Origin: Escherichia phage CMSTMSU
DNA: 64,000 nt
Reading direction: 5' to 3' (one strand)
Sequence record: MH494197.1
Each line of letters begins with the position of its first letter. Positions within the stretch are counted from its first letter, which is position 1. The notes beneath the pieces are model-generated. The model made no database searches, was not told the DNA's origin, and saw only the letters and a list, made by a program, of their open reading frames with translations. The position numbers and the translations under genes were made by a program. Shown in pieces: positions 3,040-26,416 of the stretch.

Positions 3040-3746
3040 GTATTAAACTATTTCGGTAGCTCCATACTTAAAGTAAATTTCCTTAATCATTTCAAGATTA
3101 TGGATGCTTGTAGTTTCAGACCAACCATCCTCCATCAATTCACGTTCAATAATACCTTTCGTATTATGGATTTTAATATTTTCAGTTTGAAACAGTTTCT
3201 TACATTCAGTTTCGGCAGCAATACAATCAACTGGATTTTCAAATTTAAAAGAGCTAATACGTTTTATATCATAATAACATTTTAAGTTTTGTTCATATTC
3301 ACGACGACCGAGGATTGTTTCAATTCCATATTTTAGCCCAATATATTCACCTGCATTACATATACCACTAATATATGCAATTTTTGATTGCGATGTGCCT
3401 TACGAGGATTGCCACATCCACGCAAATGTATAGATGGTGTTTGCCAGAATTCATCACCACTTTCTGGATCAATAATACACACATTAGTACGGGCATCAAT
3501 ATACTCTACTTTACTGTAATCATATTGTTCATCGTGAATTTCGTTAGCCCTGTTGATAAATTCATCAATTGACATTTTATTTTTCAGGCCAGTTGATATA
3601 TTAGCACGATCATTATTACCACATCCCATCAAATGTGATGATGGTGTTTGCCAGAATTCACCATATACTGGATCTATAATACATACCTTAGTACTGTTGT
3701 TTACGTATACGACCTTACTATAATCATACAGATTATCATGCACCAA
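3040..3746 (-). CDS. repeat-module protein (two YDYSKV...C-I-I-D-P-x-x-G-E-F-W-Q-T-P modules), frame-disrupted near 3330
   Basis: ORF 3333..3746 holds two ~60-aa internal repeats; reading continues in another frame to ~3040. Confidence 0.5.
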
Positions 3747-4615
3747 ATTGGCCTTCTCGATAAATTCATCAAGTGTTAAGCGTTTACTCTGTGCCGTTTT
3801 TCAAAACCACGGATTGGGTTTCCATGACCTTTCCAATGGTAGATTGGTTCTTGCCAGAATTCACCATATACTGGATCTACAATACATACCTTAGTCCATG
3901 CACCAGTATACTCCACTTTACTGTAGTCATATAAATGACCATGTACTGCACGAGAACGTTCAATAAAACTTCGTTGGTGAATGTTTTATTTACTGAAGTT
4001 CCTATACGCCCACGTTCCATGTTACCATGCTTGGATTTTAAATGGTCATATGGCGTTTGCCAGAATTCACCATACACTGGATCAATAATGCATACTGGAG
4101 TTTTACTATTAACATATTCTACGTTTGAATAATCGAACGTATTTCCAAAACGTTCGATAGCTTCAGCTATAAATGTTTCAGTTGTTTTTGATTTAAGTTT
4201 TTACCATTTTCAATGGCACGTTGTGGGCTACCTGCACCTTTTAAATGGGAGCTGGGTTCTTGCCAGAATTCACCATACACTGGATCAATAATACATACCT
4301 TAGTGCTATTATTTTTATAAACAACTTTACTATAATCATAGAGGTTGTTATGAACTTTTTCTGCTCGTTCTATAAACGTTTGGGTGGTTAATTTGCCAAC
4401 ACCTGAACGATATGGATTCCTGACCGCGAATGTGATGTGACGGAGTTTGCCAGAATTCACCATACACCGGATCAATAATGCATACTGGTTCTTTAGCTTT
4501 TACATACACTGCTTTTTCGTAATTATAGAGATCACCATGTACATTTCGTGCAGCAATTAAAAAGTTTCTTGGTCGGTAACACGCATTTTCTTTATCCCTA
4601 GTACGTTTCATTTCG
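3330..4615 (-). repeat. tandem array of at least 5 copies of a ~40-codon coding module
   Basis: motif YDYSKVVY..KVCIIDPVYGEFWQTPSSHL.G.G recurs in ORFs 3333..3746 (x2), 3877..4077, 4167..4475, 4348..4611 in different frames. Confidence 0.6.
4167..4611 (-). CDS. repeat-module paralogue(s), two overlapping frames
   Basis: ORFs 4167..4475 and 4348..4611 each carry one module; RBS and ATG at 4611. Confidence 0.4.
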
Positions 4616-4621
4616 ATAGAG

Positions 4622-4656
4622 CTATAATAGCAAAGGGCTGACCGAAGTCAACTCTT
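4622..4656 (-). promoter_or_regulatory. degenerate hairpin-promoter cassette
   Basis: TTGACTTCGGTCAGCCCTTTGCTATTATAG upstream of ATG at 4611. Confidence 0.45.
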
Positions 4657-4863
4657 TGATATGATAATATAATCATTCCATAAATTATATATATTGTTTT
4701 CAACACAATCATCATCGCTTAATTCTATAATTGACGAGATAAGTTCTGATAAGGTTTGTGTGTTCAAAACCGTATCACGATGTCTCAACCACCATTTCAT
4801 GGTGAGTGTTCGGATTTTGTACGGATTGTTTGAAAACTTGTATCTAGAAGTGTCAAGTATCAT
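4648..4863 (-). CDS. hypothetical protein
   Basis: 71-aa ORF. Confidence 0.35.
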   Translation of the reverse strand: MILDTSRYKFSNNPYKIRTLTMKWWLRHRDTVLNTQTLSELISSIIELSDDDCVENNIYNLWNDYIIISKS

Positions 4864-4875
4864 TTTAATCTCTAT

Positions 4876-5310
4876 TTACTTAATCATCTCGGTATAGTAC
4901 TCAGGTAACTCAACATCAGTAAATTTATACCACTTAGGCTTCATTTGGAGCTTCTCAATCAAGCGTTCACGAGACATTTTAATCTCTGAATCAGATGGTA
5001 CATAGTCCGCAAAACTCCGCAGGAAGCCGCTAATGTCGTTTAATTCAATGTTTTGAATCTTCATACCACGACGCAAACATTCGTTAACAATTTCAATATG
5101 ACGCTTCTGTAAGTACAATAACTTGTTGTAGAAGAATGTTACATGACCTGAACCTAACAGGTAAGTACTGTTAATTTTGAAATCACGTACACGCTTACGT
5201 GCTTGAACATGTTTTTGTACAGCACCAAATACACGTGGAAGTTCACGATATTCAGCCATCAGATGTTGGTCAGCAAGTTCTTTAACGTGTACTAAGTTAA
5301 TGCGGGTCAT
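4876..5310 (-). CDS. denV: pyrimidine dimer DNA glycosylase / endonuclease V
   Basis: [31 protein letters not shown]... closely matches T4 endonuclease V as recalled from memory; ATG at 5310 after GAGGATGAA RBS (track ORF starts at TTG 5367 and reads through the promoter hairpin). Confidence 0.85.
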
Positions 5311-5337
5311 GTATTCATCCTCTCGTCTTGATGAAAT

Positions 5338-5374
5338 AATTATAGCAAAAGGGCTGACCGAAGTCAACCCGTTT
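5338..5374 (-). promoter_or_regulatory. hairpin-embedded sigma-70 promoter
   Basis: GGGTTGACTTCGGTCAGCCCTTTTGCTATAAT: -35 TTGACT, 17-bp spacer, -10 TATAAT, UUCG tetraloop hairpin. Confidence 0.65.
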
Positions 5375-5720
5375 TGAAAGGATTTTTAATGGTTTTCGTA
5401 CTGTATGTATTTTGCTTTGTAGTTCTTCTTCCCACAAAACATTTATATTATAAACTAAATCATTGTAGTCACTGTTCACAAAGATAAAATCATACTTCTC
5501 ATTAAAAGTATGAGAAATCAATTTCATTTTCATAAGTATTATTGAACTTTTAAATTTATATGTTTCTTTTTCTTCTCCAGTTTTTGAACTTTGTATATTT
5601 TTATAAATTCCATGAATTCATCATTGGTCATTGTTTCAGCATCCAACAATACCCAACTTCACAATCTCATACCCGTCCAGATATCCGTAGGAACACTCAG
5701 GTGTTTCATAAGATGAACCA

Positions 5721-7384: not shown

Positions 7385-7762
7385 TCAAAATAAATTCATT
7401 TCATGTGCGTATTGTGGTTCAAGATGCGATAAGTTTTTGAAGCTTTCTTTCAACTCAGCATCATCTACATACACCGTGCGTACATTCCCCATAGTGAAAC
7501 CTACCCACACAGTCATGTCACCAGTCCCTAAGCGTGGCATTGATAGCGAACCATCAGGTGAAACATCAAACGCTACACTGAAGTCATCAGTAACAACGTC
7601 TGAACCATTTTCGAGAATAATACATCCACTATCTTTAAGCTTCTGAATGTGGATAGCAGCCTCTACAGCACGTTTGAAGTTATAGTAAGACTCTTTATCC
7701 TCAAACATTGATTGTTTAATCAGACGCTTGTTTAGCTCGGTTACTTTGTGCATTTGACGCAT
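7385..7762 (-). CDS. hypothetical protein (125 aa)
   Basis: intact ORF. Confidence 0.6.
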   Translation of the reverse strand: MRQMHKVTELNKRLIKQSMFEDKESYYNFKRAVEAAIHIQKLKDSGCIILENGSDVVTDDFSVAFDVSPDGSLSMPRLGTGDMTVWVGFTMGNVRTVYVDDAELKESFKNLSHLEPQYAHEMNLF

Positions 7763-9789: not shown

Positions 9790-9826
9790 ATTATAGCAAA
9801 AGGGCCGACCGAAGTCAACCCTTTTC
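9790..9826 (-). promoter_or_regulatory. hairpin-embedded sigma-70 promoter
   Basis: GGGTTGACTTCGGTCGGCCCTTTTGCTATAAT. Confidence 0.65.
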
Positions 9827-10464: not shown

Positions 10465-10502
10465 AACAATATTTACAAAAGGTTGACCGAAGTCAACCTT
10501 TT
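10465..10502 (-). promoter_or_regulatory. hairpin-promoter cassette variant
   Basis: AAAAGGTTGACTTCGGTCAACCTTTTGTAAATATT; perfect palindromic stem, weaker -10. Confidence 0.5.
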
Positions 10503-12034: not shown

Positions 12035-12079
12035 TATTTATAGTATAAAGAAAAGGTTGACCGAAGTCAACCCTATTTT
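12035..12079 (-). promoter_or_regulatory. hairpin-promoter cassette
   Basis: GGTTGACTTCGGTCAACCTTTTCTTTATACT followed by TATAAATA. Confidence 0.5.
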
Positions 12080-12814: not shown

Positions 12815-12857
12815 AAATATTATACGACAAAGGGCTGACCAAAGTCAACCCTTTTAA
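12815..12857 (-). promoter_or_regulatory. hairpin-embedded sigma-70 promoter
   Basis: GGGTTGACTTTGGTCAGCCCTTTGTCGTATAAT. Confidence 0.6.
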
Positions 12858-16391: not shown

Positions 16392-16434
16392 AATAATTAT
16401 AACAAAAAGGCTGACCGAAGTCAACCTTTATTTT
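16392..16434 (-). promoter_or_regulatory. hairpin-embedded sigma-70 promoter
   Basis: AAGGTTGACTTCGGTCAGCCTTTTTGTTATAAT. Confidence 0.6.
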
Positions 16435-24487: not shown

Positions 24488-24516
24488 AAAAGGCTGACCG
24501 AAGTCAACCCTTTAAT
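24488..24516 (-). terminator. UUCG-tetraloop hairpin terminator (cassette without a good -10)
   Basis: GGGTTGACTTCGGTCAGCCTTTTT downstream of sigma-factor gene. Confidence 0.5.
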
Positions 24517-24517
24517 C

Positions 24518-25480
24518 TTAAAAATCTTCGAACTCGTAACCTTGCATCTTCACCATCTTACGCAGTCGTTCCATTGCTTCAGAGTACTTACGGTGCAATG
24601 AAGAACGAGCAGTCATGACCTTACCCTTCTCATCTTCAAAACCACTCTCAATGATTTCTCGTAGCGTTTCTGGTTCAGAATAAGAACCAATACCATGTAC
24701 ACGTTCAATCAATTCACGGTCTTTGGCAGATAGGTTACTCATCATTTCTGCAATACTTTGTACCAGTGGGTACTGACAGTTTCTACGCCTAAGTTGTAAT
24801 CAGGTTCAACTGAAGTAACAATGTCAGATAATGTACTTTCTGAATCATTACTCATTTTCATATTCAATGCTACATAAGTGTTATTGTAAGTTAGACAATT
24901 CTTAACGTGTTGAATCTCAATACCAGTCTCTTTTGACACCATCTCAGGAGTTGGGTATTTACCATGTTTCCTTTGATACTCTTCTACACAACGTTTCACA
25001 TAAATGTTATTAACACTCATATAACGTGGGAAATGCACTAGATAATTAGCATCTGCACTTTCGTTATAGATTGTCATGTACACAGTTGTTGTTGCATATG
25101 TAATGAACTTAACATTTTGGTAGTGTCGAACGTATGAATTGCTCGCATTAAACCTTCAACACCATAAGAAATCTTATCTTCAAATGGGATGAAACATGTA
25201 CACTTACGTGCAACACTTACTACCATTGGATAGTTGTAGCGAACCAAAAGGTCAATATTCTTTTCAACGTCAATACCATCACGCACTGCTTGGATGAGCA
25301 TTTCATTCGTTATCCCTTTAGGGCGAGTTAAGCTGATACCTGTTTTGGTTTCTCAAACTTGTGACCGTCATGTTCTTCTTCTTCGACGGAATCAAGAGCC
25401 TCTAATACGTTGACTTCTTCACTAGCAAAACACTCATCCAGTACTTCTTCAGAAATTGCATTTAAATCAAGCTTTTTCAC
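24518..25480 (-). CDS. sigma-70-family RNA polymerase sigma factor, frame-disrupted
   Basis: region 2-like NYPMVVSVARK...EDKISYGVEGLMRAIHTFD (ORF 25074..25301), region 3-like YPTPEMVSKETGIEIQHV (24742..25083), region 4-like SAKDRELIERVHGIG...TLREI...RKYSEAMERLRK (24518..24745). Confidence 0.65.
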
Positions 25481-25602
25481 TTACTTCTCCTAATGAATGA
25501 AATCAAAAACGGTATACATTAATATTATCATCGGTATAGATATCATGGTTATGAACATCCATGAAGGTATCAAATACCTTATCAAGAAGAGTATTATACT
25601 CT

Positions 25603-25860
25603 TCATGTACTGCTATCAAGCATGTATTCACCACCACTACCCATAAAGAATGTATAATCATTATGGAGATAATCAATCTTCTTGGTAAACTTACCCTTAT
25701 TAACGATTAAGTGAATGATGTAATCTTTTGACACAAGAACACAGTGACAACTCGCCTTGCGGTCTGGTATCACAGTCTCTTGTGAAATCAAGTATCTCAG
25801 TACTTTGTTAATTTCACTAACCTCACCGCAAGCACTAAACAGTCGGTCGTGTACATACAA
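25603..25860 (-). CDS. hypothetical protein
   Basis: 85-aa ORF. Confidence 0.4.
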   Translation of the reverse strand: MYVHDRLFSACGEVSEINKVLRYLISQETVIPDRKASCHCVLVSKDYIIHLIVNKGKFTKKIDYLHNDYTFFMGSGGEYMLDSST

Positions 25861-26416
25861 TGTTTTTGTGAAACTACACCATAACTAAGTTTTGGTTTCA
25901 ACGGGAATAGGTTCAAAATGAACGTTGCTCAGTTGATGTCACTTTTGAATCAGTAAGTAATACTCCCAAGCGTTTATCAATATAAACAGTCGTCATATTA
26001 AACCTTATCTAAAATTTATCATAGATATAATATTCTTTATCGTTGAATACATTAATTCCGGATCGAAGCGTTGAAGTGTATTCATGTATAATGAACTTTT
26101 AAATAAAAATACAATGCAACAAATTCAGATATATGCATATTCTTTTTATTATTACATAAATTCTTTAGCATTTTAATGCTATCAAAATCATCTTTATCAT
26201 ATCTGTACTGGTAAAATTATATCTATTGAACTGACACTCATAGATACGAAGTGCCATTATGTCAATACATGCTTTAGATTTACAGTACTTATTCAATACG
26301 TCATAATCACCCACACATAATGCTACAAAGATTTTATGCAAGCGTAGCTTTACCTTCAATAGTATAATAACCAAAGAACTTACTGATTAAGTAATGTATA
26401 AATCTAAGCATTGGAT

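What the first reader, a model, noticed from the sequence alone, without database searches (positions are those of the whole stretch)
4876..5310. T4 endonuclease V (DenV) homologue
An intact 145-codon gene whose N-terminal 35 residues are nearly identical to T4 DenV as I recall it, with similarity continuing through the protein. Its own ATG at 5310 has a GAGGATGAA RBS and a hairpin promoter.
Basis: established knowledge. Interest (0 to 1): 0.45.

Follow-up and report, generated by a model that had tools for sequence, protein, structure and literature searches.

The report
Jumbo-phage copy of T4 DenV
This is an ordinary, already-annotated UV-damage repair gene (T4 endonuclease V / pyrimidine-dimer glycosylase) of a 121Q-like jumbo coliphage, and the only odd stretch in it is almost certainly a pair of sequencing errors.

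Summary
The ORF is real: window 5310->4876 on the minus strand, 144 aa plus a stop codon. It matches Pfam Pyr_excise (57 bits, cut-off 23) and PHROG 1183 "endonuclease V N-glycosylase UV repair enzyme" (2.6e-55). It aligns almost end to end with the crystallised T4 enzyme (2END, E=6e-49, about 60% identity). The catalytic N-terminal Thr2 and Glu23 are conserved, as are the DNA-binding Arg/Lys residues.

The window comes from an Asteriusvirus, a 121Q/PBECO4-like jumbo coliphage.

The new point is about sequence quality. Against three close relatives the window shows almost only deletions: 103 deletions against 2 insertions in 23.5 kb. They sit in homopolymers or at CCWGG (Dcm) sites, and the whole 64-kb window has no CCWGG site at all. 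That is the signature of systematic basecalling error.

Two such deletions fall inside denV, 15 nt apart, and restore the frame. They garble residues 97-101 (PAEFCQ becomes LRSFA). Undoing them gives a 145-aa protein 100% identical to the annotated protein of phage WPEC3.

The "hairpin promoter" is also real. It is a TTGACT-N17-TATAAT promoter whose -35 box lies in an 8-bp UUCG hairpin, and it recurs 8 times in the window.

The parts
4876..5310 (-). denV-like CDS (144 aa as written, stop TAA at 4878-4876): pyrimidine-dimer DNA glycosylase / AP lyase
5008..5023 (-). Stretch read out of frame between two deletions. CCC is written as CC at 5023-5022, and CA is missing from a CCAGG site between 5009 and 5008. 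Residues 97-101 read LRSFA instead of PAEFCQ. Probable sequencing errors.
5319..5322 (-). Shine-Dalgarno GAGG (within GAGAGGA), 8 nt upstream of the ATG; invariant in WPEC3 and 121Q
5339..5367 (-). Sigma-70-type promoter: TTGACT, 17-nt spacer, TG-extended TATAAT (11/12 matches). Inferred transcription start near A5332.
5351..5370 (-). 8-bp hairpin GGGTTGAC-UUCG-GUCAGCCC followed by a T run. It is terminator-like and contains the -35 box.
4648..4863 (-). 71-aa ORF of unknown function directly downstream, probably co-transcribed with denV. Its TGA stop lies inside the next hairpin.
4624..4652 (-). Second copy of the hairpin/promoter cassette (TTGACT, 16-nt spacer, TATTAT). Inferred end of the denV transcription unit and start of the next.

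Best explanation
The gene encodes the Asteriusvirus (121Q/PBECO4-like jumbo coliphage) orthologue of T4 endonuclease V (DenV, T4-PDG). This is a small all-alpha, bifunctional base-excision enzyme.

Mechanism, inferred from the family:
- After the initiator Met is removed, the alpha-amino group of the N-terminal Thr attacks C1' of the 5' pyrimidine of a cis-syn cyclobutane pyrimidine dimer.
- The catalytic Glu (Glu23, or Glu22 in mature numbering) assists.
- A Schiff-base intermediate forms, the glycosyl bond is cut, and beta-elimination nicks the strand 3' of the abasic site.
- This starts short-patch repair of UV damage in the infecting phage genome.

Expression, inferred from the sequence: the gene is transcribed early by host sigma-70 RNA polymerase from its own near-consensus promoter, as a two-gene unit (denV plus a 71-aa ORF). 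That unit is bracketed by two copies of a hairpin cassette that looks like an intrinsic terminator and a promoter in one.

The divergent residues 97-101 and the length of 144 rather than 145 aa are artefacts of two sequencing errors. The true protein is most likely identical to WPEC3 XTQ13324.1.

Shown here: homology, residue conservation, the promoter/RBS/hairpin sequences, and the error signature. Inferred: enzymatic activity, timing of expression, and terminator function.
For: Homology:
- Pfam Pyr_excise 2.4e-15, 57.1 bits against a cut-off of 23.
- PDB 2END, 1ENK, 1VAS and 2FCC (T4 endonuclease V), E=6e-49 to 8e-48, query 1-130 against chain 1-131.
- PHROG 1183, 2.6e-55, covering profile positions 1-137 of 139.
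- tblastn finds 1100 phage records, 1091 with at least 80% coverage. Tequatroviruses, including T4 denV, are about 60% identical.

Residues invariant with T4: T2, R3, E20, Y21, R22, E23, P25, R26, R116 (T4 R117), K120 (T4 K121), W127-Y128-K129 (T4 W128-Y129-K130). The roles of the N-terminal Thr amine and the catalytic Glu are described in PMC3285167.

Context:
- Megablast places the window in Asteriusvirus at 97-98% identity, with the gene annotated as endonuclease V in WPEC3, 121Q, BF17, Ecwhy_1 and others.
- The paper on the related jumbo phage CBB lists a UV repair endonuclease V (CBB_519), whose number falls inside the early region CBB_390-546 that holds most of the RpoD-like promoters (PMC5259590).
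- A jumbo-phage review notes T4 endonuclease V in a subset of jumbo phages (PMC7824862).

Expression signals.

Error signature:
- All 21 indels against BF17 and WPEC3 are deletions in the window.
- Against Turkey3 there are 103 deletions and 2 insertions in 23.5 kb. Of the deletions, 70 are in homopolymers and 13 at CCWGG, matching the 13 CCWGG sites of Turkey3.
- The 64-kb window has 0 CCWGG sites, and no homopolymer of 7 or more in the 24-kb stretch compared with Turkey3.
- The corrected ORF is 145/145 identical to WPEC3.
Against:
- The AlphaFold model from the single sequence was poor (pLDDT 53.5), so the fold rests on sequence identity to the solved structure.
- NCBIfam has no model that hits the protein.
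- If the sequence as written were real, loop residues 97-101 would differ from all relatives, with unknown effect.
- The C-terminal aromatic motif is WYKFT rather than T4's WYKYY, and a 14-aa tail follows that T4 lacks.
- Promoter-like sites are not enriched overall in the 2.5-kb scan (9 found, 10.9 expected). The promoter call therefore rests on the quality and recurrence of this particular motif.
- Covariation in the hairpin is weak: one compensatory pair, no better than shuffles.
Confidence: 0.93

Rival explanations
1. The sequence as written is biologically real. On this reading it is a natural compensated frameshift (-1 nt, then -2 nt 15 nt later) that gave this phage a DenV variant with a rewritten surface loop (LRSFA, one residue shorter).
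For: The frame is restored and the ORF is uninterrupted. The phenylalanine at position 100 is retained. No read data are available to test the sequence directly.
Against: One deletion shortens a C3 run. The other removes CA from a CCAGG site. Every CCWGG site of the relatives is damaged in the window, which has 0 such sites in 64 kb. Deletions outnumber insertions 103 to 2, and they break many ORFs that are intact in relatives, including the neighbouring 516-aa endonuclease, which has 7 frameshifts against only 9 mismatches across the whole 2.6-kb alignment with WPEC3. No phage record carries this variant (best match 96.6%), and the exact protein is not on record in the assemblies searched.
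Confidence: 0.04
2. The gene is a decaying or inactive relic of denV that no longer repairs UV damage.
For: denV is dispensable in T4 (established knowledge). The C-terminal tail is polymorphic among Asteriusviruses, 145 aa against 171 aa.
Against: All catalytic and DNA-binding residues are conserved. The gene keeps its own near-consensus promoter and RBS, both invariant in three phages. The protein is 87-100% conserved across the genus, and many of the DNA differences from 121Q within the gene leave the protein unchanged.
Confidence: 0.02
3. The protein is a family member with a shifted or broadened role. It might be a general AP lyase, or a glycosylase for other lesions, with the extra C-terminal tail mediating a jumbo-phage-specific interaction.
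For: There is a 14-aa tail (41 aa in 121Q) beyond the T4 C-terminus, and WYKFT replaces WYKYY. By established knowledge, family members such as the Chlorella virus enzyme differ in dimer-isomer range.
Against: About 60% identity to T4 DenV over the whole catalytic core, with all known functional residues retained. Nothing in the neighbourhood suggests another pathway.
Confidence: 0.05

Closest known systems
Phage T4 endonuclease V (DenV, T4-PDG; PDB 2END, 1VAS, 2FCC; Pfam PF03013)
   Same: About 60% identity over residues 1-130. Shared features: N-terminal Met-Thr-Arg, Glu23, Arg3/22/26, Arg117 and Lys121 equivalents, and Trp-Tyr-Lys near the C-terminus. Similar size, and a phage-borne gene with its own promoter.
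   Different: 144/145 aa against 138. The C-terminus is [18 protein letters not shown] instead of WYKYYGKAIYA. The gene sits in a jumbo-phage early region rather than in the T4 genome.
Endonuclease V of Asteriusvirus phages: WPEC3 XTQ13324.1 and 121Q gp217 YP_009101804.1. Also the homologue CBB_519 of the related Rak2-like phage CBB (not itself aligned here).
   Same: Same locus and the same promoter/RBS. 97% (as written) or 100% (after correcting two indels) identical to WPEC3, and 87% identical to 121Q. The CBB homologue is described in PMC5259590.
   Different: As written, residues 97-101 differ, which is probably an artefact. 121Q, BF17 and Ecwhy_1 carry a longer 171-aa form with a different acidic tail.
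Coupled intrinsic terminator / sigma-70 promoter elements
   Same: The cassette combines a GC-rich hairpin and T run with TTGACT-N17-TATAAT. By its abstract, a 2026 preprint reports widespread coupling of promoters and terminators in bacteria (listed; the text could not be read).
   Different: Here the -35 hexamer is itself the 5' arm of the hairpin, and the unit is a repeated, nearly identical 32-nt cassette (8 copies in the window). Function as terminator and promoter is untested.

Membership tests
Pyrimidine dimer DNA glycosylase / T4 endonuclease V (Pfam PF03013 Pyr_excise; PHROG 1183) | Profile match above the curated threshold | tested here: met
   Pfam 57.1 bits against a gathering score of 23, E=2.4e-15. 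PHROG 1183 at 187 bits, E=2.6e-55, profile positions 1-137 of 139.
Pyrimidine dimer DNA glycosylase / T4 endonuclease V | Near full-length alignment to the experimentally characterised, crystallised T4 enzyme | tested here: met
   phmmer against PDB: 2END_A E=6.3e-49, query 1-130 against chain 1-131 of 138.
Pyrimidine dimer DNA glycosylase / T4 endonuclease V | Thr immediately after the initiator Met, so that the mature N-terminal alpha-amine can act as the Schiff-base nucleophile | tested here: met
   The sequence starts M-T-R, with the same start as annotated in WPEC3 and 121Q. Role of the N-terminal Thr amine: PMC3285167.
Pyrimidine dimer DNA glycosylase / T4 endonuclease V | Catalytic glutamate (Glu23 in gene numbering, Glu22 in the mature protein) | tested here: met
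   E23 is invariant within the motif [11 protein letters not shown], which is identical to T4. Role: PMC3285167.
Pyrimidine dimer DNA glycosylase / T4 endonuclease V | Basic DNA-binding residues Arg3, Arg22, Arg26, Arg117 and Lys121 (their roles are taken from established knowledge of the T4 enzyme-DNA complex) | tested here: met
   R3, R22, R26, R116 and K120 are invariant columns in the alignment with T4.
Pyrimidine dimer DNA glycosylase / T4 endonuclease V | C-terminal aromatic segment (T4 Trp128-Tyr129-Lys130-Tyr131-Tyr132) | tested here: inconclusive
   W127-Y128-K129 are conserved, followed by Phe-Thr instead of Tyr-Tyr and a 14-aa extension.
Pyrimidine dimer DNA glycosylase / T4 endonuclease V | All-alpha endonuclease V fold | tested here: inconclusive
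   The single-sequence AlphaFold2 model is helical but of low confidence (pLDDT 53.5, pTM 0.48), so no fold search was run. The fold is inferred from about 60% identity to 2END.
Pyrimidine dimer DNA glycosylase / T4 endonuclease V | CPD-specific glycosylase plus AP-lyase activity; rescue of UV sensitivity | not testable with these tools
   Needs a biochemical nicking and borohydride-trapping assay and a UV-survival complementation test.
Sigma-70 (RpoD) dependent promoter | -35 and -10 hexamers at 16-18 nt spacing upstream of the gene | tested here: met
   TTGACT-17-TATAAT with TG, 11/12 matches. Invariant in WPEC3 and 121Q. The hairpin/-35 core recurs 8 times, against 0 expected by chance; a recognisable -10 follows in most copies. 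The transcription start is not mapped.

The most novel reading that the evidence does not exclude
The 32-nt cassette upstream of denV (GGGTTGAC-TTCG-GTCAGCCC-TTTT-GC-TATAAT) recurs 8 times on the coding strand of this early region. It may be a dedicated dual-function unit in which one hairpin terminates the upstream transcript while its own 5' arm serves as the -35 box for the next. That would cut the jumbo-phage early region into insulated mini-operons, denV plus the 71-aa ORF being one of them. For denV itself, the only non-trivial reading left is that the compensated frameshift is real.
Probability: 0.4. Interest if true: 0.3.

Novelty: already known. Interest (0 to 1): 0.08.

Why it matters
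For biology it matters little. It confirms that 121Q-like jumbo coliphages carry a T4-type UV-repair glycosylase in their early region, as published and as annotated in dozens of genomes.

For the scan it matters more. This window carries systematic indel errors: contracted homopolymers and destroyed CCWGG sites. Any 'frameshifted', 'fragmented' or 'locally divergent' gene seen in it should therefore be treated as a probable artefact until it is checked against relatives or reads.

Tried and rejected
- AlphaFold2 on the single sequence gave a low-confidence model (pLDDT 53.5). No fold search was run on it because the matches would be meaningless.
- NCBIfam has no model that hits the protein.
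- The exact-sequence look-up found no public contig encoding the 144-aa protein as written.
- Rfam found nothing credible in 4400-5700. The one hit (E=0.58, a human lncRNA family) is chance.
- Pfam found nothing credible for the neighbouring 71-aa and 89-aa ORFs, the WPEC3 HNH gene, or the 516-aa endonuclease.
- Covariation analysis of the 8 hairpin copies did not exceed the shuffles, so the hairpin is conserved but not proven by covariation.
- The 2026 preprint on promoter-terminator coupling could not be opened, and two paper-reading runs failed on term syntax.
- The large protein-database searches (search for homologous proteins, the search of protein representatives) and the metagenome and genome scans were deliberately not run. 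The identity of the gene was already settled by PDB, Pfam, PHROGs and annotated phage genomes.
- The 163-aa ORF starting at TTG 5367 was rejected because that TTG is the -35 box. An N-terminal extension would also bury the catalytic Thr, and relatives start at MTR.

Full report
**Observation**

On the minus strand an ORF starts at ATG 5310 and ends with TAA at 4878-4876. It is 144 codons plus the stop. The longer 163-aa entry in the mechanical ORF list begins at a TTG (5367) that is in fact the -35 hexamer of the promoter. Relatives annotate the same MTR... start.

Residues 1-35 are 31/35 identical to T4 DenV, and similarity continues to residue 130. GAGG at 5322-5319 lies 8 nt before the ATG and is invariant in two other phages.

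**What it is**

- Pfam Pyr_excise (PF03013) scores 57.1 bits against a gathering score of 23.
- PHROG 1183, "endonuclease V N-glycosylase UV repair enzyme", scores 187 bits, E=2.6e-55, over essentially the whole profile.
- Against the PDB, the six best hits are all T4 endonuclease V entries (2END, 1ENK, 1ENJ, 1ENI, 2FCC, 1VAS), at E=6e-49 to 8e-48, query 1-130 against chain 1-131.
- In the alignment with T4 the functionally critical positions are invariant: Thr2, directly after the initiator Met; Arg3; Glu20-Tyr21-Arg22-Glu23; Pro25-Arg26; Arg116 and Lys120 (T4 Arg117 and Lys121); and Trp127-Tyr128-Lys129 (T4 128-130).
- The mechanism of the family is an N-terminal threonine alpha-amine forming an imine with C1' of the lesion's deoxyribose, assisted by the active-site glutamate and followed by beta-elimination. 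It is described in PMC3285167, and I infer it applies here.

**Where it comes from**

Megablast puts the window in the genus Asteriusvirus, the 121Q/PBECO4/phAPEC6-like jumbo coliphages of 350-385 kb. Identity is 97-98% over 24 kb to BF17, Turkey3, WPEC3, fEgEco12 and others. In these records the orthologue is annotated as "endonuclease V", "pyrimidine dimer DNA glycosylase" or similar.

tblastn finds the family in 1100 phage records. The nearest relatives outside the genus are the Tequatroviruses, including T4 itself, at about 60% identity.

The literature already records this. The paper on the Rak2-like phage CBB lists a UV repair endonuclease V (CBB_519), whose number falls inside the presumed early region CBB_390-546 where most RpoD-like promoters lie (PMC5259590). 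A comparative review notes T4-type endonuclease V in a subset of jumbo phages (PMC7824862). The finding is therefore a correct identification of a known gene.

**The one anomaly, and its explanation**

Residues 97-101 read LRSFA where WPEC3 and 121Q read PAEFCQ/PAEFCN and T4 reads PQEFRG. The DNA alignment shows why. The window has CC where the relatives have CCC (5023-5022). Fifteen bases later it lacks two bases, CA in WPEC3, from a CCAGG site (between 5009 and 5008). This is a -1/-2 pair that restores the frame.

This is not peculiar to denV.

- Against BF17 and WPEC3, all 21 indels in about 5 kb are deletions in the window. Nearly all are contractions of A, T, G or C runs, or losses at CCAGG.
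- Against Turkey3 over 23.5 kb there are 339 mismatches, 103 deletions and only 2 insertions. Of the deletions, 70 are in homopolymers and 13 at CCWGG, matching the 13 CCWGG sites in that stretch of Turkey3.
- The entire 64-kb window contains no CCWGG site. In the 24-kb stretch compared with Turkey3, runs of 7 or more are absent and runs of 6 are depleted (5 against 23).
- GATC and CCSGG counts are unaffected.

One-directional homopolymer contraction, together with specific destruction of the Dcm methylation motif, is the known signature of uncorrected long-read basecalling (established knowledge), not of evolution.

The same errors explain two other features. They split the neighbouring 516-aa HNH-type endonuclease (intact in WPEC3, PHROGs 681/559) into five or more ORF fragments at 3333-4611. 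They also make the upstream ORF (5315-5533) appear to read through the denV promoter into the RBS, whereas BF17 has an 89-aa gene that ends before the hairpin.

Restoring the three bases gives a 145-aa protein that is 145/145 identical to WPEC3 XTQ13324.1. No phage record and no indexed assembly carries the protein as written. I put the probability that the loop variant is real at about 4%.

**Expression signals**

Upstream of denV lies TTGACT (5367-5362), a 17-nt spacer, and TG-TATAAT (5344-5339), 11 of 12 consensus positions. The -35 hexamer forms the 5' arm of an 8-bp hairpin, GGGUUGAC-UUCG-GUCAGCCC (5370-5351). The hairpin is flanked by an A-tract and a U-tract and has a predicted energy of -16.3 kcal/mol, z=-5.0 against shuffles.

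The 21-nt core recurs 8 times in the window, all on the minus (coding) strand between 4.6 and 24.5 kb, against 0 expected by chance. Most copies are followed by a TATAAT-like box, and five of them by a conserved (T)TTCATCAA. The cassette is invariant upstream of denV in WPEC3 and 121Q, although the genes upstream of it differ.

Pairing is kept in 98% of cells across the 8 copies. Only the outermost pair shows a compensatory change (G-C to A-U), and the covariation statistics do not exceed the shuffles. The hairpin is therefore conserved but not proven by covariation.

A second copy (4652-4624) overlaps the stop codon of the 71-aa ORF that follows denV. I infer a two-gene early transcription unit (denV plus the 71-aa ORF) bracketed by two terminator/promoter cassettes, with a start near A5332. 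None of this is mapped experimentally.

**Comparison and membership**

All sequence-testable defining features of the T4 endonuclease V family are met: the profile thresholds, the near full-length alignment to the solved enzyme, the N-terminal Thr, the catalytic Glu and the basic DNA-binding residues. The C-terminal aromatic motif is only partly kept (WYKFT against WYKYY), and a 14-aa tail follows. In 121Q, BF17 and Ecwhy_1 the tail is 41 aa and different, so the extreme C-terminus is polymorphic within the genus.

The fold could not be confirmed independently, because the single-sequence AlphaFold model was poor. At about 60% identity to a crystal structure this is not a real doubt. Activity is not testable here.

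**Verdict**

It is of low interest in itself. The useful by-products are the demonstration that the window carries systematic indel errors, which affect the reading of every ORF in it, and the description of the repeated hairpin-promoter cassette.

Noticed in passing
whole window (quantified on 5000-29000; examples at 7479, 5732, 5008, 4420): Systematic indel errors relative to three close relatives. There are 103 deletions against 2 insertions in 23.5 kb, mostly 1-nt contractions of homopolymers plus losses at every CCWGG (Dcm) site. The 64-kb window has 0 CCWGG sites, and the 24 kb compared has no run of 7 or more. This looks like an uncorrected long-read assembly, so many ORFs in the window will appear frameshifted.
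   Followed up: yes
window 4632-4652, 5348-5368, 9799-9819, 10477-10497, 12051-12071, 12829-12849, 16405-16425, 24488-24508 (all minus strand): Eight copies of a hairpin/promoter cassette, (A)n-GGGTTGAC-TTCG-GTCAGCCC-TTTT. Most are followed by TATAAT and five by a conserved (T)TTCATCAA. The -35 box is the 5' arm of a terminator-like hairpin. This may be a coupled terminator/promoter unit of the early region.
   Followed up: partly
window 3333-4611 (minus strand): A string of overlapping ORF fragments with a motif repeated five or more times (...YDYSKV.Y.N..TKVCIIDPVYGEFWQTP..HL.G.G...). It corresponds to one intact 516-aa HNH-type (homing?) endonuclease in WPEC3 (CDS125; PHROGs 681/559/4605). 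In the window it is broken by 7 homopolymer deletions, so this is an artefact and not a pseudogene.
   Followed up: partly
window 5315-5533 (minus strand): This 72-aa ORF seems to run through the denV promoter and end inside the denV RBS. In BF17 and Ecwhy_1 the corresponding gene is 89 aa and stops before the hairpin. The difference is explained by deletions at about 5602, 5387 and 5350. The gene is absent at this position in 121Q and is replaced by an HNH endonuclease gene in WPEC3.
   Followed up: partly
window 4876-4915, against L002 3400-3516 (121Q) and L003 2389-2904 (BF17): The DenV C-terminal tail is polymorphic in the genus. There is a short form (145 aa, ...[11 protein letters not shown]) in WPEC3, Turkey3 and this window, and a long acidic form (171 aa) in 121Q, BF17 and Ecwhy_1. 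The breakpoint lies within the last ~35 nt of the gene, next to a variable region that holds endonuclease genes in some genomes. This may be recombination or homing-associated co-conversion.
   Followed up: no
window ~24800-26400 (by co-linearity with Turkey3 L005 19883-21368): The same early region carries genes annotated in relatives as an RNA polymerase sigma factor and an ATP-dependent protease (HslV-like). Neither was examined here.
   Followed up: no
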